Under the pieces are notes generated by a model. It had not been told where the DNA came from. It made no database searches and saw nothing but the letters and a program-made list of their open reading frames with translations. Below, piece by piece: positions 5,501-39,750 of a stretch of 40,562 bases of DNA (positions within the stretch are counted from its first letter, which is position 1; every line of letters begins with the position of its first letter). The position numbers and the translations under genes are program-made. Origin of the DNA: Escherichia phage Zappy; the sequence record OQ870568.1. One strand, written 5' to 3'.

Positions 5501-6441
5501 CCAGCACCAATCACACCAGCTGCTAACTGAGCACCAGTCCCAGCCTTGGCCTTCTCTTGGTCCAACTTCTGGTTCTCAAGCGCTAAGTTAATAAGCTCGG
5601 TCAGGTTCTGAGGGGAGCCACCAGTAATGACCCCGTAATACTGAGGAAGAACTCCAGCGTTACGAATCTGGTCCAGCTCCTCACGAGACCACTTATGGTT
5701 GTTCCAGCGGGTAGGATTGAACACATCGCCAATGACATCAAGTGAGTCCTCGGTCTGACCAGCGCGGATAGCCACGCCGACCATAGAGTTCTTCACTTCA
5801 GCTTCTGTAGCCGAGCCGAAACCGAACCACGTAGAGCGATCCTCTCGTTCCTGCATGGTCTCGCCAGTAGACTTATAGAACATCTCACCGAACGATTCGT
5901 TGGGAGCTTCAGGTGCTTGACCCTCAATGTTTAGACCAGCAGCGGTCGGAAGGTTCTCACCCAGAGCTACTTTAGGTTTAGCCTTGAGTCCTTCCGTGAG
6001 TGCGTCAAATACGTTAGCGCTTACTGGTGGAGTCTTTGGGCTAATACCATTGAGTGCTCGTGCGACTCCATTCTGATAGACTTCAGGGTCGTACCGGGAG
6101 CCTGTCTCATGGAAGCTGATAGCTTGAGCCAGAGCAGACAGGGTGTCAGGGTTCGATAGGTCGAGACTCTGGGTAGCTGGAATACCAGTTGCAGCCACCA
6201 CTGAGTCAATATAAGCCTTAGTGTCGTTCTCGTTAGGAGGCGCCCATCGGTTGATAATCTTCTCGATGGAGTCATAACCTTGGCGACCGTAGGACAGCAG
6301 GTTTTTACCTAAAGCTCGGACGCCAGACTCTGGACTATCGAAGGTGACGAATGAGCCATCATCTCCAGTCATTCCTTCCCATTGGTCCTTACTTACCCGG
6401 ATGTTACCCGGATTGTTATTGCGAATACCACGAGTCGCCAT
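2554..6441 (-). CDS. 16: Internal virion protein D (gp16), 1295 aa; N-terminal ~130 aa unlike the T7 transglycosylase domain as I recall it
   Basis: ORF track; size and long stretches (e.g. GASGKIGTTASDVFERL, SPTGMQSGASGK) resemble T7 gp16; ATG with AAGGAG 8 nt upstream; synteny. Confidence 0.9.
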   Translation of the reverse strand: MATRGIRNNNPGNIRVSKDQWEGMTGDDGSFVTFDSPESGVRALGKNLLSYGRQGYDSIEKIINRWAPPNENDTKAYIDSVVAATGIPATQSLDLSNPDTLSALAQAISFHETGSRYDPEVYQNGVARALNGISPKTPPVSANVFDALTEGLKAKPKVALGENLPTAAGLNIEGQAPEAPNESFGEMFYKSTGETMQEREDRSTWFGFGSATEAEVKNSMVGVAIRAGQTEDSLDVIGDVFNPTRWNNHKWSREELDQIRNAGVLPQYYGVITGGSPQNLTELINLALENQKLDQEKAKAGTGAQLAAGVIGAGVDPLTYVPIAGQVGKGAKLVNKMFTVAAQSGALAGVSEMARTSVAGGDAHVAEAILGGALFGGGMTAIADGLGRALGRNTNEFAGPATRLEARETARNVDGQDLSRLPIQEGEQTFSYQGVKFADVPNEPGSVRLEDGSILIGENPLNPKTRQVFDEVIEPERAAAGVNLGGLTEIGLKLLRSENPEIRGVAADLVRSPTGMQSGASGKIGTTASDVFERLRAVDHRFYNDIDDAVTEALKDPYFQTAFWRDSGAFRQDIYQRVSMAIEDGSGNLKAELTPGELKVYDLLKNQFDAKREMMENPAMFGRPDAQSIFPGSRFKGTYVPHVYSKQMKELYIKELGSPEALQEAIKKSWLTSYASRPEVKKRVDEALLESDPTLTPEGLAAAVDKYANDKAYGISHTEQFERSSVMEENINGLVGLENNSFLEARNLFDSDMSIVLPNGQTFSVNNLREWDMDKIVPAYNRRVNGDIAIMAGTGKTTKDMKDLVETMMNKAGDDGKLKGEVSTLRDTLKILTGRARRDGADDAAFATVMRTMTDLSFFAKNAYMGVQNLTEIGGMLARGNVRAMLHGVPIFRDLAFRNKKVGASEIKDLHNVIFGKELDDSIRPSKQDVIDRLRSYSDLGRGTATALGTAKYYTGELAVRSPFTKVLNGTTNYLLDAGRQGFLSDIVEHSLTGSKRKFDDRWLKTAGISDEQWNGIKSLIRESVTRGPDGKYTIKDKKAFSQDPRAMDLWRMGDTIADETLLRPHKLSNMDAKAYGPIAKTVLQFKNFVIKSINGRTMRTFYNATKNNRAIDAALSTVMSMGLAGINYIAQVHVKAYAMQDGRDRDYLKQALDPTMIGYAALSRSSHLGGPLGVANILGGIAGYEATKMLRSSILPRSPTEKPERAITFGAATSDPVMNVVGNFLEQVPAFGYAANVGVSAYNLAGYLKADTRVNERDYMTGMYNTFRELVPNDPITQKLLLGTFEEQGIHIKD

Positions 6442-9782: not shown

Positions 9783-9811
9783 AAAGTCTCCTTATAACCT
9801 TAAGGGCCTAT

Positions 9812-9834
9812 AGTCCCTATAGTGATAGTTAAGG
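9812..9834 (-). promoter_or_regulatory. Phage RNAP promoter (phi13-like), CCTTAACTATCACTATAGGGACT
   Basis: Motif match; intergenic between gp12 stop and gp13 start. Confidence 0.7.
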
Positions 9835-9858
9835 TAAATCTATAGGCCCTTCAATAAG

Positions 9859-17056: not shown

Positions 17057-17453
17057 GATTAATCTCCTTAGTTGTTACGATGTCTACCGACCCGGAAACA
17101 TGCTTGACACGAGAATACCAGCCAAGACCCCAACGCTTGCACTCTTCGTCTATGATGTGTCTGACAGTCTCAAGAACCTTGCGGGAGGACTGCGAGTCAC
17201 GACGAATAGCGACTATTGAAAGGTCAAGACCGGGAGTCGGTCGGTGCCAAGATGCGGTAGCCAGCATGTAGAGATACGCTACTGGTTGACCTGAGACATC
17301 GTAGATTGTGTACTCTTCACCATCGAACTCGTCAGCCATACGGTAAGTATGAGCCTTGAAGTCCTCTAATGACTTGAAGTTAGACTGCCCGTCTTCCCAG
17401 AGGCGACAGGCGCACATGTGGCGACCTTCGCGTGAGTTGAGATATGGTAACAT
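17049..17453 (-). CDS. gp7-like protein, 134 aa (start uncertain; alternative ATG at 17417)
   Basis: ORF track; size and position as T7 gene 7 (133 aa). No sequence-level recognition. Confidence 0.55.
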   Translation of the reverse strand: MLPYLNSREGRHMCACRLWEDGQSNFKSLEDFKAHTYRMADEFDGEEYTIYDVSGQPVAYLYMLATASWHRPTPGLDLSIVAIRRDSQSSRKVLETVRHIIDEECKRWGLGWYSRVKHVSGSVDIVTTKEINRG

Positions 17454-17969: not shown

Positions 17970-18030
17970 CTTGAATCTCCTCTTTAAGTTAAGACTAAAG
18001 TCTATCTTATAGTCATATCTTAGGTCCTAA

Positions 18031-18053
18031 AGTCCCTATAGTGATAGTTTAGT
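18031..18053 (-). promoter_or_regulatory. Phage RNAP promoter (phi6.5-like), ACTAAACTATCACTATAGGGACT
   Basis: Motif match; intergenic between exonuclease and the gp6.5-like gene. Confidence 0.75.
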
Positions 18054-18179
18054 GTTTCACCTATGGATGACTGTTGGATTGATAGGATATGACTATCGGT
18101 TAGACTCAGTGTTTAGGGCGGTTGTTCGACCCGAACCACTTGTACATGCAGTAAAGGGCCAGAAGTCCGGCCCAGTATA

Positions 18180-20520: not shown

Positions 20521-22692
20521 TCAATGGCATTCTTTCCATGTTGGTCCAATCTTGCCCTCAGTATCAAGTACACACTTGAAGTTATAGAACTCACCCACCT
20601 TACGCATAGCAAGTTGAGCAATCTTGACGACTTCTTCGGCAATCTCCTGAGTACGGCAAGCAATCTGCAATTCGTCGTGAACCCAGGCCATGTACGCGAA
20701 GTCTCCCTCCCAGCCGTGAACATACCCTGACTCTTCAAGCATACGTTCAGTCTCGACAATCCAGTGCTTACAGACTACCGCACCATCGCCTTGAAGTAAG
20801 GCGTTCAGTGCTGAGTGCGGCGACCGGATGTGGATACGGCGACCGTCAAGTCCACGCAGCCAACGGCGTTTCCACTTAACGATGTTCTCTCCGTCCACCC
20901 ACTTAGAGTCTGAGATTAACGTACTACTCACAGCTTCCCTGAGGTCTTTGATGGCTGGTGTACCCTCAATGAATTTCTGCATGAGTGCTGAACCTTCCTT
21001 CTTCCCACCGCCTACTATCAGTCCAATCTTCGCGGCCCCTGCACCATATAGGAACGCATAGATGAACGTCTTAGCGTTGTTACGGAAAGCATCATGGTCG
21101 TGGCTGGACTTATCGCGTGGGACGTTAGGTGCTAACCCAGCGTTTACTGCGTTGGCCCAGTGGATGTCACCTTCGACCACAGTCTTCGCATAGGCACCAC
21201 CATCAAACGGAGCCGCTCGGTTCCCCAGACAACGAAGCTCAAGACCTGAAGCATCCACACCCACTTGAATCCAAGGGTCTGGCTTACCATCCGTCTTGTT
21301 CCAAGCTGCACCGAAAGCACCACGGCAAATCTCACCATACGGAGCACCGTTAGCAGGGACCTGAGCCATGTTTGGTGAACTATGAGTCGCACGTCCGGTT
21401 ACTGCCCCGCATGGGTTGATTGAACCGTGCATCCGTCCGTCTGGACCTACAAGTTTCAACCATGCGTTCTTACCTTCAGCCGCCTGACCGATGCGCTTCT
21501 GGACTACCAGATACTCACGAACTAGCTCTACGCAATCCTGAGCCTCTGCGTCTGGCAACTTAACGTGTTCTAACGTCTCGTCATCGACTACAGGTTTCCC
21601 GGTGTCAGTGAAGTCCACAGGCTCCCAGCCACGCTCCATCAGAACTTTCGCTAAGTGGTCTCCGCTTCCCGGATTAAACTCAACGTAAGTGATTGGCGTG
21701 AAGGGTGCTCCCTCCATCGTGTCTCGCGTATCGCGTTCACAGGGTTCAAGACCTAAGCGTTGAGCTTTGTTCTTCGGCTTCTTAAAGATGCCACCGACCT
21801 TAGGATACACGACTCTCGGATACTTCGGAAGGTCCTTGCCTGTCCGTGGGTGCTTGAAGAACTCCTTGCCTCCCTTTGGTGCGTACCAGCTGCCGAAAGT
21901 CGAACGCAGCTTGTCCAGCAGCTCTGCACGCTTGACGGTGAGTTCACGATATAAGCCTTCGACCATCTCGGTGTTCATCGGATAGCCGTTACGTTCCATC
22001 TTCGCACAGGTCCACGCAGCATCATGTTCCAGACGCAACGCATAAATCTGGTCGAAAGCGAACTGTTCAGACTGGAAGTAATACTTGTCAGTCAGGAACT
22101 TCTTGAACAACGCCAGTGTGACCACAACGTCTTGAACGTTATAGTCCAGCATCTCCTGAGACGGGAACAACCATTCGTCCCCAGCCTTATATTCGATACC
22201 TTCAGCCTTGCATTTGGCAACGTAATCGTGTTTGTACTCACCTTTCATCTCCCCGAGACGATAGCCCCAAGCCTCAAGAGACTGTCGTCCCATCATCTGA
22301 GGTGGCAGACGTCCAGATTTCACCGCTCCCATGTCTGAGAACTTAATGTTGGGATACATCAATCGCCCAAGCACCAAGGTATCAACAATTCGACCCTTAT
22401 TCACATTTAGGTTCTTACCGAAGTATTTCTTCTTCAGTATTTTCAAGGCTGGTATATCATAGTTCACACCATTATGCATAACCAGCATACCGTCAGTGGA
22501 TGTCATAATAGATTCTATGCGGTCTATATATTCTTTGAATCCACCTGTCAGCCCAGTCATAGGGGCAACACCATATTTCTCAGTAGCTTGAGTTCCAGCG
22601 TTAATGATAACACCACAGTGGAACTGTGACACAGTGTCTAGTAGACCGTCAGTCTCTATATCTGTGCCATAGAATGAGTTGAGATTAAACAT
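20521..22692 (-). CDS. 5: DNA polymerase gp5 (family A, with 3'-5' exonuclease), 723 aa
   Basis: ORF track; many T7 gp5-like stretches (NVQDVVVT, GSWYAPKGG, KYPRVVYPKVGGIFKKPKNKAQR, DASGLELRCL, FAYMAWVHDE). Confidence 0.95.
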   Translation of the reverse strand: MFNLNSFYGTDIETDGLLDTVSQFHCGVIINAGTQATEKYGVAPMTGLTGGFKEYIDRIESIMTSTDGMLVMHNGVNYDIPALKILKKKYFGKNLNVNKGRIVDTLVLGRLMYPNIKFSDMGAVKSGRLPPQMMGRQSLEAWGYRLGEMKGEYKHDYVAKCKAEGIEYKAGDEWLFPSQEMLDYNVQDVVVTLALFKKFLTDKYYFQSEQFAFDQIYALRLEHDAAWTCAKMERNGYPMNTEMVEGLYRELTVKRAELLDKLRSTFGSWYAPKGGKEFFKHPRTGKDLPKYPRVVYPKVGGIFKKPKNKAQRLGLEPCERDTRDTMEGAPFTPITYVEFNPGSGDHLAKVLMERGWEPVDFTDTGKPVVDDETLEHVKLPDAEAQDCVELVREYLVVQKRIGQAAEGKNAWLKLVGPDGRMHGSINPCGAVTGRATHSSPNMAQVPANGAPYGEICRGAFGAAWNKTDGKPDPWIQVGVDASGLELRCLGNRAAPFDGGAYAKTVVEGDIHWANAVNAGLAPNVPRDKSSHDHDAFRNNAKTFIYAFLYGAGAAKIGLIVGGGKKEGSALMQKFIEGTPAIKDLREAVSSTLISDSKWVDGENIVKWKRRWLRGLDGRRIHIRSPHSALNALLQGDGAVVCKHWIVETERMLEESGYVHGWEGDFAYMAWVHDELQIACRTQEIAEEVVKIAQLAMRKVGEFYNFKCVLDTEGKIGPTWKECH

Positions 22693-23116
22693 TATATTTC
22701 TCCAAGTACGTTATAGCAGCCCTAAGCACAGCTACCTTGTCACCGAACTTACCAAGTGCGCTATTACATGTACCACATAGCAATCCCCTAACACTACCTG
22801 AGTCATGGCAATGGTCAACGTGGGCTACATTATTCTTACTCTCAATAGACCCATGCTTGAAGATAATGTCTGAGCATATAGCGCATCTGCCCTTTTGACT
22901 ATCGAACATAGTGTCATATTCCTCAAGTGTGAGACCATAGGCTTTCTTAAGCCAAGACTTACGGGCAGATAGACGATGCGCCTCACCAGCCTCTGTACCT
23001 TTGTTTCGGTGATATCGCGACCTATTATCCTCACGAGCACAGGATATGCACCACCCATTTGTCTTCCTGAACTCAGTGGACTCCTTTGTGGAGCCGCATC
23101 TACTGCAAGTCCTCAT
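22685..23116 (-). CDS. Endonuclease VII-family protein (homing-endonuclease-like), 143 aa
   Basis: ORF track; motif HVDHCHDSGSVRGLLCGTCNSALGKF typical of the T4 endonuclease VII family; N-terminal Cys-rich region; RBS AAGGAG. Confidence 0.8.
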   Translation of the reverse strand: MRTCSRCGSTKESTEFRKTNGWCISCAREDNRSRYHRNKGTEAGEAHRLSARKSWLKKAYGLTLEEYDTMFDSQKGRCAICSDIIFKHGSIESKNNVAHVDHCHDSGSVRGLLCGTCNSALGKFGDKVAVLRAAITYLEKYNV

Positions 23117-23149
23117 ATTGCTTCTCCTTTAGTTATAAGTCTAGTCATA

Positions 23150-23174
23150 AAGGCCACTCGATGTGAATGACCTT
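23150..23174 (-). promoter_or_regulatory. RNase III-type processing hairpin (family member 3)
   Basis: Minus-strand AAGGTCATTCACATCGAGTGGCCTT shares conserved flanks and a covarying stem with the hairpins at 30553 and 39449. Confidence 0.45.
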
Positions 23175-23360
23175 GAGTATAGACCTAGAAGTCTGTACGC
23201 AAGAAGTGGTACATAAACTTCCGGTTAGCTTTCTTCCATGCCTTAGAGTCGAACCTTTGGTCTCCCAGAATGTTTGACAGGCAGGTTGCTTCGTCGCTCC
23301 ACCATTTGTACATGAACCGATGGTAGCGAGCTTTAAGTTTTCTTAGCAATGTACTCCTCC

Positions 23361-25251: not shown

Positions 25252-25301
25252 TGGTCACTCCTTAATCAATAATGCGAACAAAGGGACAGGACTAATGGTC
25301 C

Positions 25302-25324
25302 CATCCCTAAGGTGATAGTTTAGG
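25302..25324 (-). promoter_or_regulatory. Variant phage promoter, CCTAAACTATCACCTTAGGGATG (two mismatches at -4/-3)
   Basis: Motif match except -4 and -3; upstream of the small ORF and gp4. Confidence 0.45.
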
Positions 25325-25535
25325 CTTTGAAGAACTTAGCCAATTGGTCAGCTTTGGTATCAGCCTGACGAGCCTTCATGCCAGCTTCCAGTGACGCGAT
25401 GGTCAGCTTGTCAGCCAGAGCAGCAGCATCAGCCGCGCCGGTCGCAGTCTTCTTTTCTACCTTTCGTTCCAGTACCGCAGCACGACGATAACCACGCACC
25501 ACCAGACGACCAAGAAATTCGATAAGTTTAATCAT
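25320..25535 (-). CDS. Hypothetical protein, 71 aa
   Basis: ORF track; ATG with AGGAG upstream; between the lysozyme and primase genes. Confidence 0.5.
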   Translation of the reverse strand: MIKLIEFLGRLVVRGYRRAAVLERKVEKKTATGAADAAALADKLTIASLEAGMKARQADTKADQLAKFFKA

Positions 25536-28573: not shown

Positions 28574-28614
28574 CACAAAGCAAAGAAACCCAGCAGTCCT
28601 AAGACCGCTGGGTT
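28574..28614 (-). terminator. Rho-independent terminator, TE-like (early terminator for host RNAP)
   Basis: Minus-strand AACCCAGCGGTCTTAGGACTGCTGGGTT (8-bp GC-rich stem plus inner pairs) followed by TCTTTGCTTTG; directly after the HNH gene that follows ligase. T7 TE lies after gene 1.3. Confidence 0.5.
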
Positions 28615-30332: not shown

Positions 30333-30512
30333 TTATGCTCCTACGAAATACTTCTCTTGGTTGACCATAGAGTCTTTGCCCTCAGCGTTACGAAAAGCAC
30401 CCTTGACACCACCACCACGCTTGGTCTTGTTCAGCTTGCGGCCCTTCGTAATGTAATCTTCAGTCTGCTGACGTTCACGGATGCGCTCGAAGTTGATAGT
30501 GTTCTGATACAT
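30333..30512 (-). CDS. 1.1: gp1.1-like protein, 59 aa
   Basis: Hand translation MYQNTINFERIRERQQTEDYITKGRKLNKTKRGGGVKGAF...; TKGRKLNKTKR matches T7 gp1.1; RBS GGAG. Below the ORF-track size cut-off. Confidence 0.7.
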   Translation of the reverse strand: MYQNTINFERIRERQQTEDYITKGRKLNKTKRGGGVKGAFRNAEGKDSMVNQEKYFVGA

Positions 30513-30552
30513 TGTTGTAGCTCCAGTTGTTTAGGTTATAGGGTTAATCATG

Positions 30553-30579
30553 AAGGCCACGACTCTGAGTCATGACCTT
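30553..30579 (-). promoter_or_regulatory. RNase III-type processing hairpin (R1.1-like)
   Basis: Minus-strand AAGGTCATGACTCAGAGTCGTGGCCTT; stem pairs with G-U wobbles, so it is an RNA-level structure; same position as T7 R1.1 (between gene 1 and gene 1.1). Confidence 0.5.
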
Positions 30580-30584
30580 GAGTC

Positions 30585-30607
30585 TAATCCTATAGTGATA
30601 GTTTAGG
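30585..30607 (-). promoter_or_regulatory. Phage RNAP promoter (phi1.1-like), CCTAAACTATCACTATAGGATTA
   Basis: Motif match; first promoter downstream of the RNAP gene, as for T7 phi1.1A. Confidence 0.75.
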
Positions 30608-33582: not shown

Positions 33583-33602
33583 ACTTAAAGTCCTTGTTAT
33601 TA

Positions 33603-33642
33603 GTCTTTCACTTAGAGTCTCTTTGGTCTTTCACTTGGAGTC
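33603..33642. repeat. 17-bp direct repeat x2 (gtctttcactt[a/g]gagtc) in the RNAP leader
   Basis: Two copies 23 bp apart between the promoter at 33652-33674 and the RNAP start codon. Confidence 0.6.
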
Positions 33643-33651
33643 TTAGACCTT

Positions 33652-33674
33652 GAGTCCTATAGTGATAGTTAAGT
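33652..33674 (-). promoter_or_regulatory. Phage RNAP promoter located 75 bp upstream of the RNAP gene itself, ACTTAACTATCACTATAGGACTC
   Basis: Motif match; lies between the stop of the 86-aa early ORF (33680) and the RNAP ATG (33582). Confidence 0.7.
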
Positions 33675-33679
33675 CATAA

Positions 33680-33940
33680 TTACTTGCATATCAGTGGGTT
33701 AGCGTGAAGATGACTGAAGTCACCGTGAGTCGTGTGCTTGATGGTCGACCGTTGGTCTATCGCCTTCCAGCCTGAGACTAAAAGTTTACCATCGTCAGTG
33801 ATCGGTCGTCCACCAAACGCCAGACTCATCAGTTCGTACTTATTGCCCTCAGCCCTCATGCGGCGATGTAAGAACACGTCACGCTCTATTTGCTCTACAC
33901 GGCTACGGATAGATGGTTTGTTAATGTATACGGTTTTCAT
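33680..33940 (-). CDS. Early hypothetical protein, 86 aa
   Basis: ORF track; start overlaps the upstream stop as TAATG; occupies the T7 0.4-0.7 region. No similarity recognised. Confidence 0.55.
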   Translation of the reverse strand: MKTVYINKPSIRSRVEQIERDVFLHRRMRAEGNKYELMSLAFGGRPITDDGKLLVSGWKAIDQRSTIKHTTHGDFSHLHANPLICK

Positions 33941-34137
33941 TACAGTTTGCTCCCAATAGTTGCTATATCCCAGACGTTCGCTAAGTTGCGCATGAATCGT
34001 CCGTTAGGTTGATGTACAGTCCAGCGGACCATACGTACATAGTTGAATTTATAGACTTTACGCGCTTTGTTGATGTCTCTCATCAGCACGTAGGCGATAA
34101 GTCCATAGCCTATGGCTATCAATAATGAAGATATCAT
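33940..34137 (-). CDS. Early small membrane protein, 65 aa (N-terminal transmembrane segment)
   Basis: ORF track; MISSLLIAIGYGLIAYVLM hydrophobic helix; coupled by ATGA overlap to the upstream 29-aa ORF. Confidence 0.5.
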   Translation of the reverse strand: MISSLLIAIGYGLIAYVLMRDINKARKVYKFNYVRMVRWTVHQPNGRFMRNLANVWDIATIGSKL

Positions 34138-34223
34138 AGTGATTTCCGTTTAATACAATCGTATACCCCATAACCTATCATCAAGATAACTGGCGCTAGA
34201 CATACCCAGTAACCGATGTTCAT
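34134..34223 (-). CDS. Possible early 29-aa membrane peptide (MNIGYWVCLAPVILMIGYGVYDCIKRKSL)
   Basis: ATG with AGGAG 6 nt upstream; stop overlaps the next start as ATGA. Confidence 0.35.
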   Translation of the reverse strand: MNIGYWVCLAPVILMIGYGVYDCIKRKSL

Positions 34224-34437
34224 AATTAACTCCTATCAATTTAAGTGATAATCTTTGAGGCCACCTATCAGTCGTGACCTCTCGTCTATCACTCAGTGTG
34301 TAAGCTGTCGTGCATACGTTTGCGGCGCTTATAGACCACCTTCAGGAGACGCATAGACTCCTCGTGGTTTAATCGCCCGGTCTTGACCATAAGCCGGGCG
34401 GTGGTGACGTGGTACTGGCAGAGACCATAAGTTACCA

Positions 34438-34770
34438 TCACTCGCAGTCCTCTTCAGCCTCGTACCAGACCACCTCAGAGCTATTAGACACATCGTTATA
34501 CAGTGCCTCATAGATGCGAGCTTGTAGTATACGCGTTACGTCCTTGGTCTCAGGCATCAGCCCAGAGTCTTCGAACTCATTGTCAATACCATCAGCAGCC
34601 ATCACCGTGTAAATCTCGTGGTAATAATGCGGAACATTACCGTCTACGACCTCATGCAGCGCATCGCTGTAGTCATCGCCTTCAGCTATTTCGTCGCACT
34701 GAATACGCTCATTGAACAGCTCAACGGTTGCAGCCAGCAGCTCATAGTATGCGTTAGCGTTACGTTCCAT
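34438..34770 (-). CDS. ocr: Ocr (gp0.3) DNA-mimic anti-restriction protein, 110 aa
   Basis: ORF track; VPHYY, EFEDSGLMPETKDVTRILQARIYE and the acidic C-terminus resemble T7 Ocr; first gene after the early promoters. Confidence 0.85.
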   Translation of the reverse strand: MERNANAYYELLAATVELFNERIQCDEIAEGDDYSDALHEVVDGNVPHYYHEIYTVMAADGIDNEFEDSGLMPETKDVTRILQARIYEALYNDVSNSSEVVWYEAEEDCE

Positions 34771-34804
34771 AGTTATATCCTCTCAGTTGTTAGTGACTAT
34801 CAGT

Positions 34805-34836
34805 CAGGGCCTTCAGATGTAGATTCAAAGGCCCTG
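34805..34836 (-). promoter_or_regulatory. Stable hairpin in the ocr leader (R0.3-like RNase III site candidate)
   Basis: Perfect 9-bp inverted repeat CAGGGCCTT...AAGGCCCTG with a 14-nt loop, 35 nt upstream of the ocr ATG. Confidence 0.5.
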
Positions 34837-34876
34837 TAGTTAGTCGCTATCGGCGCACATTAAGAGTTTATCCAGA

Positions 34877-35280: not shown

Positions 35281-35373
35281 TGAGACTGTAGGTTAGTGAG
35301 ACTGTAGGTTAGTGAGACTGTAGGTTAGTGAGACTGTAGGTTAGTGAGACTGTAGGTTAGTGAGACTGTAGGT
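35281..35373. repeat. Tandem array of a 16-bp unit (tgagactgtaggttag), 5 perfect copies plus a partial one
   Basis: Read directly; the core CTGTAGG also recurs at 35243, 35256, 35651 and 35668. Confidence 0.9.
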
Positions 35374-35848
35374 GTAGGACGTAATGTTATACTATAACAC
35401 TATACAGATAGAGACTCAAAGAAGACCTATAGCCCCTACCTATCGTCCTTCCCTAAGCCATAGCCTAGACCTATCGTTGACCTGAAGTCTTTACCATCGG
35501 TCCAACCTTATGATAGACTGGCTGTGACTGCAAGGAGCAGTAACGGGTAGGGCCTTTGGTCTGGACTTAAAGAGGGCCTATGGGGAGACTTGAGGTTCTT
35601 GAACTGTGAGATGTGGTCTCAAACTTTTGGTCCAAAACTCATCGTCACTACTGTAGGCCACAGCCACTGTAGGCCAAGGACCGTAGGTCAGGCGACACTA
35701 GGATAGACCAATAAGTAGGATGACCCTAAGTGAGCTTCTCTTAAGGTGTTACCTAAAGTCCTTGACTGCAGTAGCTAAGGTCAGTAGAGTAGCGTCAGCT
35801 ATGAACTGACCTTAGGTCTTCCGCTCATGAATCGTTACCATGATTGCG

Positions 35849-36007
35849 TTAATTACACTGAGAGACCAGAGAGCATACGAGAGTCTCGACCCACCCGACC
35901 CACTGACTTCCAGCAGTAACGCCAGCAGCAAGTAGAACAGCAGCAAGAAACCTGTATGTAGCTCGATTGGTCGCCAGAGCTTTAAGTACAGCTTTGGTCT
36001 TTGCCAT
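35849..36007 (-). CDS. Possible small membrane protein, 52 aa, at the gene 19.5 position
   Basis: Hand translation MAKTKAVLKALATNRATYRFLAAVLLAAGVTAGSQWVGWVETLVCSLVSQCN; AGGAGG 8 nt upstream of the ATG. Confidence 0.4.
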   Translation of the reverse strand: MAKTKAVLKALATNRATYRFLAAVLLAAGVTAGSQWVGWVETLVCSLVSQCN

Positions 36008-36153
36008 ATGCTACATACCTCCTGTATCTATGGTCGGTGACTATCTGTATTTGAGGGATTATGATTAATATCACCCTCCTCTATAGGGAGACTTAGAGTC
36101 TTATCTATATGCTAACTTTTAGTCGGCATACTATAAGGTCCCCCTAGGTCCCC

Positions 36154-36176
36154 CATCCCTATAGTGATAGTTAAGT
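36154..36176 (-). promoter_or_regulatory. Phage RNAP promoter (phiOR-like), ACTTAACTATCACTATAGGGATG
   Basis: Motif match; last promoter before the probable right genome end. Confidence 0.7.
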
Positions 36177-38945: not shown

Positions 38946-39385
38946 TTCTCCTTATCTTGCTGCAAGGCTCTCACAGTGTCCTGAAGAGCCTTAATCCACT
39001 TGTCTCCTTTCACTCCTATGGCGATAAGACGTTTAGCATCTCGTTCGTCAAGTTCGGCGTAACCATCAATGACGCATCGACCGTCACTTTGCGTGGTTCC
39101 ACTCGTTGGCTTGACTCGGATGCGCAGCCGCTTATTGTCAGACTGAAGGTCAGCAATAATCCTATCAGTGCTGCCTTCCAGCGAGGACATTTCGTCCTGA
39201 AACCGTTTGGACACTTTGTTGACTTCAGCTTGGACAGCAAGCCTTGTATCTTCCGATGCCTTAAGATTCGAGGTGTATTCTTCATTGACCTTAGCCTCCC
39301 ACTTATTGTTAGCGGTGTGGTAGCCACCAGCAAACATCACTGCTGCAAGTAACCACGGAGCCGCTCTCTTTAAAAATTCGAGCAT
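38942..39385 (-). CDS. 18.5: Rz-like i-spanin gp18.5, 147 aa
   Basis: ORF track; MLEFLKR, EGSTDRIIADLQSDNKRLRIRVK, DERDAKRLIA, WIKALQDTVRALQ resemble T7 gp18.5. Confidence 0.8.
   Translation of the reverse strand: MLEFLKRAAPWLLAAVMFAGGYHTANNKWEAKVNEEYTSNLKASEDTRLAVQAEVNKVSKRFQDEMSSLEGSTDRIIADLQSDNKRLRIRVKPTSGTTQSDGRCVIDGYAELDERDAKRLIAIGVKGDKWIKALQDTVRALQQDKEK
39016..39285 (-). CDS. 18.7: Rz1-like o-spanin gp18.7, embedded in the +1 frame of gp18.5 (~89 aa from the internal ATG)
   Basis: ORF track 39016..39333 (TTG-initiated); PRWKAALIGLLLTFSLTISGCASE lipobox and C-terminal SLMVTPNLTNEMLNV resemble T7 gp18.7. Confidence 0.6.
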   Translation of the reverse strand: MKNTPRILRHRKIQGLLSKLKSTKCPNGFRTKCPRWKAALIGLLLTFSLTISGCASESSQRVEPRKVTVDASLMVTPNLTNEMLNVLSP

Positions 39386-39448
39386 AGTTGCCCTCCCGGT
39401 TTATCAGATTTCACGTAGAGTCGCCTCCACTAGTTAGTGTTAACCATA

Positions 39449-39475
39449 AAGGCCACTACATATAGTAATGACCTT
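39449..39475 (-). promoter_or_regulatory. RNase III-type processing hairpin (R18.5-like)
   Basis: Minus-strand AAGGTCATTACTATATGTAGTGGCCTT; same conserved flanks and covarying stem as the hairpins at 30553 and 23150; between gp18 and gp18.5. Confidence 0.45.
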
Positions 39476-39486
39476 GAGTCTAACAC

Positions 39487-39750
39487 TTATTGAACACCAT
39501 ACCCGGTGTCATTATCTTCCGTAGCGGAGAGCACCTTATCGTACTCTGCGTTCAGGGCCTCCATATCAGCGAGCGTCTTCTCGTCAACAGACAACTTGCT
39601 TAGCACGAAGTTGTGACGAGCCAGTAGCTTCTCAATGGCGTTGTAAAGCTGAGGTGAACGCTTAGAGTCATCCCGCAGGTCTTGCAGCATGAGTCGAGCA
39701 CGTTCAGTATCCAGCATCAAGAGGAACTTCTCTAAGTCCATCTGCGTCAT
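39487..39750 (-). CDS. 18: Terminase small subunit (DNA maturase A) gp18, 87 aa
   Basis: ORF track; FLLMLDTERARLMLQDLRDDSKRSPQLYNAIEKLLARHNF resembles T7 gp18; RBS AAGGAGGTG. Confidence 0.8.
   Translation of the reverse strand: MTQMDLEKFLLMLDTERARLMLQDLRDDSKRSPQLYNAIEKLLARHNFVLSKLSVDEKTLADMEALNAEYDKVLSATEDNDTGYGVQ

What the first reader, a model, noticed from the sequence alone, without database searches (positions are those of the whole stretch)
30553..30579. Family of conserved RNA hairpins with compensatory stem changes (RNase III site candidates)
Three loci (30553-30579, 23150-23174, 39449-39475) share the minus-strand frame ACTCAAGGTCAT...GTGGCCTT(T/C)ATG. The stems differ between copies but stay paired, including G-U pairs, which indicates selection on RNA structure. 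Their positions (before gene 1.1, before the endonuclease VII gene, between gp18 and gp18.5) parallel T7 RNase III sites R1.1, R4.7 and R18.5. A further perfect hairpin lies in the ocr leader (34805-34836).
Basis: partly seen in the sequence, partly recalled or inferred. Interest (0 to 1): 0.45.

Follow-up and report, generated by a model that had tools for sequence, protein, structure and literature searches.

The report
T7-type RNase III processing hairpins
The three conserved hairpins are real and are the K1F-like phage's versions of the RNA signals at which the host enzyme RNase III cuts phage T7 messenger RNAs, so they are an ordinary, already understood kind of element that is simply not annotated here.

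Summary
The frame ACTCAAGGTCAT…GTGGCCTTYATG occurs exactly three times, all on the minus (sense) strand, with 0 expected by chance. The window is a circularly permuted Kayfunavirus (K1F-like, T7 supergroup) genome.

A covariance model built only from seven T7 RNase III sites finds five minus-strand hits in the window. The same model recovers 8 of the 10 'RNase III recognition site' stem-loops annotated in T3, with no extra T3 hits.

Each element is about 58-65 nt: lower stem, internal loop, then a 10-12 bp upper stem. Across 57 distinct homologues, 94% of cells pair and 15 of 18 pairs show compensatory changes.

The loci sit where R1.1, R4.7 and R18.5 sit in T7 and T3. The most likely function is a single-strand cut by host RNase III in the 3' side of the internal loop. 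Cleavage itself is untested.

This is a new member of a known kind and of low interest. Looser R3.8-, R6.5- and R13-like stems also exist. There is no R1 or R1.3 equivalent.

The parts
30534..30593 (-). RNase III-type processing signal at the R1.1 position. Upper stem-loop 30553-30579; the lower stem pairs GGAUUAG with AUUAACC(C). Its 5' arm overlaps the start region of the phage promoter at 30587-30604. The predicted cut lies between 30550 (U) and 30549 (G), 37 nt before the gene 1.1 ATG at 30512.
   Evidence: T7-only covariance model, 46.8 bits, E 1.5e-8. Fold -21.2 kcal/mol, z -4.1. Promoter. Downstream ORFs are gp1.1-like and gp1.2. The cut position is inferred by register with T7 (T7 coordinates recalled from Dunn & Studier 1983).
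23131..23188 (-). RNase III-type processing signal at the R4.7 position, between the gene 4 cluster and gene 5. Upper stem-loop 23150-23174; its 10-bp stem is identical to that of T7 R1.1. The predicted cut lies between 23147 and 23146, 30 nt before the endonuclease VII ATG at 23116.
   Evidence: 54.2 bits, E 2.4e-10. Fold z -4.9. Stem identity to T7 R1.1. K1F and EcoDS1 orthologues lie directly before gene 5.
39430..39489 (-). RNase III-type processing signal at the R18.5 position. It starts within the gene 18 stop codon (39487-39489). Upper stem-loop 39449-39475. The predicted cut lies between 39446 and 39445, 60 nt before the gene 18.5 ATG at 39385.
   Evidence: 53.8 bits, E 2.9e-10. Fold z -5.0. 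It shares UAUGG after the stem with T7 and T3 R18.5. T3 R18.5 likewise overlaps the end of gene 18.
34786..34850 (-). RNase III-type signal in the ocr (gene 0.3) leader, at the R0.3 position. Upper stem-loop 34805-34836, lower stem GACUA/UAGUC. The predicted cut is near 34802/34801, about 31 nt before the ocr ATG at 34770.
   Evidence: 35.4 bits, E 8.7e-6. Fold z -6.6. The flanks resemble T7 R0.3.
34238..34295 (-). Upper stem-loop 34257-34281 (GAGGUCAC/GUGGCCUC). The lower stem GAGUGAUAG/(G)AUUAUCACU(U) is nearly identical to that of T7 R0.5. The predicted cut is near 34254/34253.
   Evidence: 33.0 bits, E 3.3e-5. Fold z -6.4. Alignment to T7 R0.5. Orthologues in K1F (1766-1824) and EcoDS1 (1490-1548).
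25282..25308 (-). R3.8-like hairpin: 11 bp including 2 G.U pairs. It starts inside the phi3.8-like promoter (25304-25321) and is followed by UUUGUUCGCAUU, as in T7 R3.8. This is a weaker candidate of the non-consensus type.
   Evidence: Sequence. Fold z -2.85. Side-by-side comparison with T7 and T3 R3.8. The covariance model does not detect it.
18000..18105 (-). R6.5-like long-range stem. AUAGUCAUAUC (18086-18096) pairs with GAUAUGACUAU (18009-18019), enclosing the promoter at 18033-18050. T7 and T3 R6.5 enclose phi6.5 in the same way. Candidate only.
   Evidence: (z -3.9). The T3 annotation places R6.5 at 17135-17206 around phi6.5 at 17160-17182.
9802..9851 (-). R13-like perfect 12-bp stem, AAGGGCCUAUAG/CUAUAGGCCCUU, enclosing the promoter at 9814-9831 before gene 13. 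Candidate only.
   Evidence: (z -2.7). T3 R13 (25443-25480) encloses phi13 (25457-25479).

Best explanation
The three loci, plus the ocr-leader hairpin and a fifth site at 34238-34295, are sense-strand RNA processing signals orthologous to the RNase III sites of phages T7 and T3.

Each is transcribed as part of a polycistronic early or late mRNA. It folds into a coaxial structure of about two helical turns: a lower stem, an asymmetric internal loop (ACUC on the 5' side, U/C-AUGA on the 3' side), and a 10-12 bp upper stem beginning AAGGUCA/UGGCCUU.

Host (E. coli) RNase III binds this structure. Because the internal loop lets only one strand enter a catalytic site, the enzyme cuts one phosphodiester on the 3' side of the loop (…CCUUYAU^GA…).

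The upstream mRNA then ends in the upper hairpin, which protects it from 3' exonucleases. The downstream mRNA begins 30-60 nt before the next start codon, with a 5'-monophosphate and a freed ribosome-binding region.

Shown here: the sequence family, the fold, covariation, strand specificity, homology to T7 and T3 sites, and synteny. Inferred: that RNase III cleaves them in vivo, the exact cut positions, and the consequences for mRNA stability and translation.
For: - Motif statistics: three exact matches against 0 expected by chance.
- T7 has the same motif at 5861-5884, and the seven canonical T7 sites share the consensus in one register.
- On the T7 sites alone the proposed structure is 93.7% paired, with 11 of 18 pairs changed on both sides.
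- The covariance model trained only on T7 finds exactly five minus-strand hits in the window, at E 2e-10 to 3e-5. The next hit is at E about 0.9.
- The same model recovers 8 of 10 annotated T3 'RNase III recognition site' stem-loops with no false hit in T3. It also recovers T7 R6.5, which it was not trained on.
- K1F and EcoDS1 carry sites at the same five gene junctions.
- Across 57 distinct homologues, 94.0% of cells pair against 77% in shuffles and 25-48% in slid controls. 15 of 18 pairs carry compensatory changes; 0 of 500 shuffles reach this.
- The U.G wobble at upper-stem pair 5 is kept in 52 of 57 sequences. It can pair only in RNA of the sense strand.
- The antisense strand scores 10-15 bits and folds 3-11 kcal/mol worse at four of five sites.
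- Folding z-scores are -4.1 to -6.6.
- Literature: RNase III processes the T7 early precursor at five sites, and the late precursors too. R1.1 RNA is cut at a single phosphodiester (PMC4858673). Internal loops restrict cleavage to one strand and leave protective 3' hairpins (PMC1540722, PMC3867540). T7 has ten RNase sites, commonly next to promoters (PMC6938266).
- The upper stem of the 23131-23188 site is identical to that of T7 R1.1, the standard in vitro substrate.
Against: - No experimental data exist for this phage or, as far as I could find, for any Kayfunavirus. The K1F, EcoDS1 and SR04 records annotate no RNase III sites.
- The T7 cleavage coordinates used for the register are recalled from Dunn & Studier 1983. 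The T7 records held here do not carry them.
- In the 30534-30593 site, the pair that is U-A in T7 R1.1 is G-C. I read this position as part of the distal box, whose optimum is the canonical UA/UG (PMC1540722). Substitutions there weakened binding of a minimal substrate, so this site may be a poorer substrate.
- The phage has no gene 0.7 kinase, which stimulates RNase III in T7 infection.
- The alignment used for covariation was fitted to the model's structure, which favours pairing somewhat.
Confidence: 0.88

Rival explanations
1. The hairpins are structured RNA elements that stabilise mRNA 3' ends or modulate translation of the next gene without being cleaved. RNase III may bind them as a regulator only, or another factor may recognise them.
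For: Binding can be uncoupled from cleavage in R1.1 variants (PMC1540722). T7 grows without RNase III (PMC6938266). The 30534 site departs from the optimal distal-box pair.
Against: The sequence around the scissile bond, the proximal stem AAGG/CCUU and the internal loop are the same as in the T7 sites that are cleaved. The 23131 site has the identical upper stem to the cleaved T7 R1.1. No feature known to uncouple binding from cleavage was seen.
Confidence: 0.06
2. They are transcription terminators or pause sites for the host or phage RNA polymerase.
For: They are stable G+C-containing hairpins in intergenic regions, followed by a short U-containing stretch (UUUAUGAUU).
Against: None of the five sites meets even a permissive terminator pattern of hairpin plus T-run. 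The expected TE-like terminator is found separately at 28587-28614. The conserved lower stem and internal loop, with covariation, are not terminator features. The homologous T7 and T3 sites lie inside polycistronic transcripts that are read through (PMC4858673).
Confidence: 0.02
3. They act at the DNA level, as conserved intergenic 'linker' sequences for homologous recombination and module exchange, or as origin or cruciform elements. On this view the RNA fold is incidental.
For: The core is conserved far beyond what helix geometry needs: 8 identical bp plus flanks across paralogous sites and across genera. Gene content differs immediately next to some sites: an endonuclease VII gene follows the R4.7-position site here but not in K1F or EcoDS1, and K1F has two R0.3-like copies 260 bp apart.
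Against: The conserved G.U wobbles would be A.C mismatches on the other strand or in a cruciform. The antisense strand scores and folds much worse. Compensatory changes preserve RNA pairing. A DNA-level role could at most be an addition to the RNA role.
Confidence: 0.04

Closest known systems
Bacteriophage T7 RNase III processing signals R0.3, R0.5, R1.1, R4.7 and R18.5 (Dunn & Studier 1983; the R1.1 RNA substrate used by the Nicholson laboratory)
   Same: Same consensus, ACUCAAGGUC…UGGCCUUUAUGAUU. Same architecture of lower stem, asymmetric internal loop and upper stem. Same sense-strand orientation and the same gene junctions. The window's 23131 site has an upper stem identical to T7 R1.1.
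   Different: Loops and the top 2-4 bp of the upper stem differ: 5-nt loops here against the GCAA loop of T7 R1.1. This genome has five consensus-type sites where T7 has seven. There is no R1 equivalent, only a half motif after a phage promoter, and no R1.3 equivalent because genes 1.2 and 1.3 overlap. The gene downstream of the R4.7-position site is an endonuclease VII, unrelated to T7 gp4.7. There is no 0.7 kinase.
Bacteriophage T3 'RNase III recognition site' stem-loops annotated in NC_003298
   Same: Same positions relative to genes. R1.1 follows phi1.1 directly and precedes gene 1.1. R4.7 precedes gene 5. R18.5 overlaps the end of gene 18. The same covariance model detects them.
   Different: T3 also has detectable R1, R1.3 and R6.5 of the consensus type. 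In the window, the R6.5 and R13 analogues have unrelated stem sequences and are found only by structure and position.
Unannotated orthologues in Kayfunavirus K1F (NC_007456) and EcoDS1 (NC_011042)
   Same: The same consensus sites at the same junctions. The R18.5 site is identical in K1F and seven other contigs.
   Different: K1F has a sixth, duplicated R0.3-like copy (707-771 and 1030-1088). Relatives vary in the length of the upper stem and loop at R18.5 (55-65 nt elements), with compensatory changes such as C-G to U-A in L147.

Membership tests
T7-group RNase III processing signals | Shared sequence consensus around the cut site (ACUCAAGGUC … UGGCCUUUAU^GAUU) | tested here: met
   Exact frame found at the three loci. 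Alignment with T7 and T3 sites. T7 register.
T7-group RNase III processing signals | Architecture of lower stem, asymmetric internal loop and upper stem of at least 10 bp, about two helical turns, on the transcribed strand | tested here: met
   MFE and centroid folds of all five elements, z -4.1 to -6.6. Upper stems are 10-12 bp. All genes and all sites are on the minus strand.
T7-group RNase III processing signals | Significant score against a structure-and-sequence model built from independent, experimentally defined members (T7 only) | tested here: met
   33-54 bits, E 3e-5 to 2e-10; the next hit has E about 0.9. The model was validated on T3 annotations, recovering 8 of 10 with no extra hits.
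T7-group RNase III processing signals | Base pairs maintained by compensatory substitutions among members | tested here: met
   94% paired; 15 of 18 pairs with changes on both sides; 0 of 500 shuffles reach this; slid controls give 25-48%. Caveat: the alignment was fitted to the model.
T7-group RNase III processing signals | Conserved position between the same genes as in T7 and T3 | tested here: met
   Flanking genes were identified with PHROGs and compared with the T3, K1F, EcoDS1 and T7 maps. R4.7 is met by position only.
T7-group RNase III processing signals | Proximal-box and distal-box base pairs compatible with E. coli RNase III recognition (PMC1540722) | tested here: inconclusive
   The 23131 site has an upper stem identical to T7 R1.1. 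The 39430 site keeps U.G and U-A at the same distance. The 30534 site has G-C where R1.1 has U-A. My assignment of the distal box rests on my reading of the text of PMC1540722 without the figure.
T7-group RNase III processing signals | Site-specific single-strand cleavage by host RNase III in vivo and in vitro | not testable with these tools
   No transcript-end data exist for this phage, and no paper in the searchable library reports RNase III sites for K1F-like phages.
Intrinsic (rho-independent) terminator | G+C-rich hairpin followed immediately by a U-run | tested here: not met
   None of the five sites appears among the terminator-like matches. The TE-like terminator is at 28587-28614.
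Any Rfam family | Match at or above a family's gathering score | tested here: not met
   0 matches over the whole window. No Rfam family matched anywhere in the window.

The most novel reading that the evidence does not exclude
The core of these signals is conserved far beyond what RNase III recognition is known to require. Eight identical base pairs, including two wobble pairs, plus both loop strands are shared by paralogous sites in one genome and by phages of several genera.

The most novel reading not excluded is a second constraint on top of processing. One possibility is concerted evolution or gene conversion among sites, with the sites used as recombination linkers at which T7-like phages swap gene modules. 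The endonuclease VII gene sitting right behind the R4.7-position site, and the duplicated R0.3-like copies in K1F, would fit this. Another possibility is recognition by a further phage or host factor.
Probability: 0.1. Interest if true: 0.45.

Novelty: new member of a known kind. Interest (0 to 1): 0.15.

Why it matters
The practical value is for annotation. K1F-like phages are used for phage therapy and engineering against K1 E. coli. Their records (K1F, EcoDS1, SR04) list promoters and terminators but not these processing signals, although the signals shape mRNA boundaries, stability and translation of neighbouring genes.

Knowing the five consensus sites and their predicted cut positions helps when the genome is refactored or when inserts are placed in intergenic regions. 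The T7-trained covariance model could annotate these sites across Studiervirinae; a 58-nt site alone has BLAST matches in 332 phage records.

Scientifically, the result confirms a textbook mechanism in another genus and opens no new question.

Tried and rejected
- Rfam at gathering thresholds over the whole window gave no match.
- I looked for RNase III features in the T7 records NC_001604 and V01146. They are not carried there, so the T7 cut coordinates come from memory. The T3 record served as the annotated reference instead.
I kept only the about-40-kb contigs, most of them with several matches (L016, L022, L045, L050, L062, L076). For orthologues I switched to protein-anchored loci using gp18 and gp1.2.
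- Twelve more distant gp18 loci (L148-L159, 52-59% identity) gave no model hit at E<=0.01. The R18.5 site is therefore not universal among remote relatives.
- R1 equivalent: the region before gene 1 (33583-33672) has the half motif ACTCAAGGTCT after a phage promoter, but no stable fold (z +0.27) and no model hit. Rejected as a site.
- R1.3 equivalent: genes 1.2 and 1.3 overlap (30065 and 30080), so there is no room for one.
- Terminator reading: rejected.
- Homology of the endonuclease VII ORF to T7 gp4.7: none.
- Literature: the K1F genome paper, Panayotatos & Truong 1985 and the T7 refactoring paper are not held. Searches for RNase III together with K1F or Kayfunavirus found nothing relevant.

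Full report
**What the window is.** All long ORFs lie on the minus strand. An 8-kb stretch is 96.5% identical to Escherichia phage SR04 and about 90-93% identical to K1F-like phages of the genus Kayfunavirus. Flanking genes match PHROG families for T7-type RNA polymerase, ocr, the gp1.2 dGTPase inhibitor, primase/helicase, DNA polymerase, small terminase and Rz-like spanin. The window is a circular permutation. The physical left end, identical to nucleotide 1 of EcoDS1, lies near 35612 on the minus strand.

**The observation.** The frame ACTCAAGGTCAT-N(4-14)-GTGGCCTTYATG occurs exactly three times, at 23146-23178, 30549-30583 and 39445-39479. All three are on the minus strand, and no dinucleotide-preserving shuffle produced a match.
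- The reported coordinates delimit upper stem-loops of 12, 10 and 11 bp.
- The first eight pairs are identical and include two U.G wobbles.
- Pairs 9-11 differ between copies but stay paired.
- The ocr-leader hairpin at 34805-34836 is also present: 11 pairs, 9 of them Watson-Crick.

**What the elements are.** T7 carries the same motif once, at 5861-5884. I extracted T7 sequence at the RNase III cut coordinates I recall from Dunn & Studier 1983: 890, 1468, 3138, 5887, 6448, 13892 and 36856. All seven show the same consensus, ACTCAAGG…CCTTTAT^GA, in the same register. This supports the recalled positions, but it is not an independent citation.

The seven T7 sites align to a common structure of lower stem, internal loop and 10-bp upper stem. 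That structure is 93.7% paired, and 11 of 18 pairs change on both sides.

I built a covariance model from these T7 sites only and searched the window with filters off. It returns exactly five convincing hits, all on the minus strand:

| Window coordinates | Bits | Position |
|---|---|---|
| 23131-23188 | 54.2 | R4.7 |
| 39430-39489 | 53.8 | R18.5 |
| 30534-30593 | 46.8 | R1.1 |
| 34786-34850 | 35.4 | R0.3 (ocr leader) |
| 34238-34295 | 33.0 | R0.5 |

The next hit has E about 0.9 and is the antisense strand of a true site.

**Validation of the detector.** The T3 RefSeq record annotates ten stem-loops as 'RNase III recognition site'. The T7-only model recovers eight of them at matching coordinates: R0.3, R0.5, R1, R1.1, R1.3, R4.7, R6.5 and R18.5. 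No other T3 hit reaches E<=0.01. In T7 it also recovers R6.5, which was not in the training set.

**Structure and covariation.** Each of the five elements folds as predicted: lower stem, internal loop, upper stem. Energies are -20.6 to -24.7 kcal/mol, with z = -4.1 to -6.6 against shuffles.

I collected homologues from K1F, T3 and metagenomic T7-like contigs anchored on gp18 and gp1.2. This gave 73 hits, 57 of them distinct. Results on this set:
- 94.0% of cells pair, against 77% in column shuffles and 25-48% when partners are slid.
- 15 of 18 pairs carry changes on both sides.
- 0 of 500 shuffles reach any of the measures.

Orthologous R18.5 sites within Kayfunavirus differ in upper-stem length and sequence yet remain paired. 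One (L147) changes C-G to U-A inside the otherwise invariant core. The alignment was fitted to the model, which favours pairing somewhat, but the margin is large.

**RNA level, sense strand.**
- The U.G wobble at upper-stem pair 5 is kept in 52 of 57 sequences. On the complementary strand it would be an A.C mismatch.
- Antisense model scores are 10-15 bits.
- Antisense folds are 3-11 kcal/mol weaker at four of the five sites.

**Position.**
- The 30534 element begins in the initiating region of a phage promoter (30587-30604). It precedes a 59-aa gene that is 95% identical to EcoDS1 gp1.1, followed by gp1.2. T3 has the same order: phi1.1, R1.1, gene 1.1.
- The 23131 element lies between the gene 4 cluster and gene 5. 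In K1F and EcoDS1 the orthologous site sits about 10 nt before gene 5. Here an endonuclease VII gene (22685-23116) sits between the site and the polymerase gene, and it is unrelated to T7 gp4.7. 'R4.7' is therefore a positional label.
- The 39430 element starts within the gene 18 stop codon and precedes gene 18.5, as T3 R18.5 does. It also shares the UAUGG junction specific to R18.5 in T7 and T3.
- The lower stems of the 34238 and 34786 elements closely resemble those of T7 R0.5 and R0.3.
- K1F and EcoDS1 have sites at the same five junctions, and K1F has a duplicated R0.3-like copy. Neither record annotates any of them.

**Other T7-type sites.** T7 and T3 R3.8, R6.5 and R13 overlap promoters and depart from the consensus. 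The window has analogues by structure and position:
- An 11-bp hairpin at 25282-25308, starting in the phi3.8-like promoter and followed by the same UUUGUUCGCAUU as T7 R3.8.
- An 11-bp long-range stem enclosing the promoter at 18033-18050.
- A perfect 12-bp stem enclosing the promoter at 9814-9831.

These are candidates only (z -2.7 to -3.9). There is no R1 equivalent: the half motif after the promoter at 33654-33671 has no stable fold. There is no R1.3 equivalent, because genes 1.2 and 1.3 overlap.

**Mechanism.** The following comes from the literature.
- E. coli RNase III processes the roughly 7000-nt T7 early precursor at five sites, and the late precursors as well. R1.1 RNA is cut at one phosphodiester (PMC4858673).
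- Internal loops restrict cleavage to one strand and leave a 3' hairpin that protects against 3'-5' exonucleases. Proximal-box and distal-box base pairs act as recognition determinants, and about 11 bp between the cut and the loop is the minimum for good reactivity (PMC1540722; PMC3867540).
- T7 has ten such sites, commonly paired with promoters, and can grow without RNase III (PMC6938266).

By homology I infer single cuts at …CCUUYAU^GA…, that is between 30550/30549, 23147/23146 and 39446/39445, and near 34802/34801 and 34254/34253. The upper hairpin would remain on the upstream mRNA. The downstream genes would be left with 30-60 nt leaders.

The 23131 site has exactly the T7 R1.1 upper stem. 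The 30534 site has G-C where R1.1 has the U-A that I read as part of the distal box, so it may be a weaker substrate (inference).

**Rivals.**
- Terminators are excluded. No site has a U-run, and the expected TE-like terminator is found separately at 28587-28614.
- A purely DNA-level role conflicts with the conserved wobbles and the strand asymmetry.
- Binding without cleavage cannot be excluded without experiments. It is unlikely, because the sequence around the scissile bond is identical to that of sites that are cleaved.

**Novelty.** This is the textbook T7 RNase III signal family in an unannotated K1F-like genome: a new member of a known kind, and of low interest. One feature is not fully explained by known RNase III requirements. 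The core is conserved to an extreme degree among paralogous sites and across genera; a 58-nt site has BLAST matches in 332 phage records. This leaves a small chance of an additional constraint, such as gene conversion, recombination linkers or another binding factor.

Noticed in passing
window 33583-33672 (-): Before the RNA polymerase gene there is a phage-type promoter (33654-33671), directly followed by the 5' half of the family motif (GGACTCAAGGTCT). There is no matching 3' half and no stable fold (z +0.27). It may be a decayed R1 site. EcoDS1 annotates a 'phi' promoter at the same place (2244-2266).
   Followed up: partly
window 22685-23116 (-): An endonuclease VII-family ORF (143 aa) sits between the R4.7-position site and the DNA polymerase gene, overlapping the polymerase start. 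K1F and EcoDS1 have no gene at this position; EcoDS1 has an endonuclease VII at gene 13.5 instead. This looks like a mobile nuclease insertion next to the conserved hairpin.
   Followed up: partly
window 35281-35373: A perfect tandem array: 16-bp unit, 5.8 copies, 100% identical (minus strand CCTACAGTCTCACTAA). It lies in the non-coding left-end region, about 240 nt downstream of the physical left end.
   Followed up: no
window ~35612 (-) and 35430-36170: The window is a circular permutation of a linear genome. The minus-strand sequence from about 35612 matches nucleotide 1 onwards of EcoDS1 (TCTCACAGTTCAAGAACCTC…), which is the start of the terminal repeat. A phiOR-like promoter lies at 36156-36173.
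   Followed up: partly
window 33680-34440 (-): Only small ORFs lie between ocr and the RNA polymerase gene. There is no homologue of the T7/T3 gene 0.7 protein kinase, the enzyme that phosphorylates and stimulates RNase III during T7 infection.
   Followed up: no
L123 (K1F) 707-771 and 1030-1088: K1F carries two R0.3-like sites about 260 bp apart upstream of gene 0.3. The first is nearly identical to the window's single ocr-leader site.
   Followed up: no
window 2538-36173 (-), 11 sites: There are eleven phage promoters with consensus TAACTATCACTATAGGRA, all on the minus strand: 2538, 9814, 14225, 15212, 18033, 25304, 27544, 28520, 30587, 33654 and 36156. Only 0.03 would be expected by chance.
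   Followed up: partly
window 28587-28614 (-): A 12-bp G+C-rich hairpin followed by a T-run lies about 400 nt downstream of the ligase gene. This is the position of the T7 and EcoDS1 early terminator TE.
   Followed up: no
phage records: Near-identical Kayfunavirus-type genomes are deposited as 'Enterococcus phage EFA-1', 'Acinetobacter phage vB_Aba_01KA' and 'Staphylococcus phage MBBL139'. The host labels are implausible for this E. coli phage group and probably reflect contamination or mislabelling.
   Followed up: no
L148-L159: Twelve metagenomic loci encode more distant gp18 relatives (52-59% identity). None has a covariance-model hit at E<=0.01, so the R18.5-type signal does not extend to these remoter T7-like phages.
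   Followed up: no
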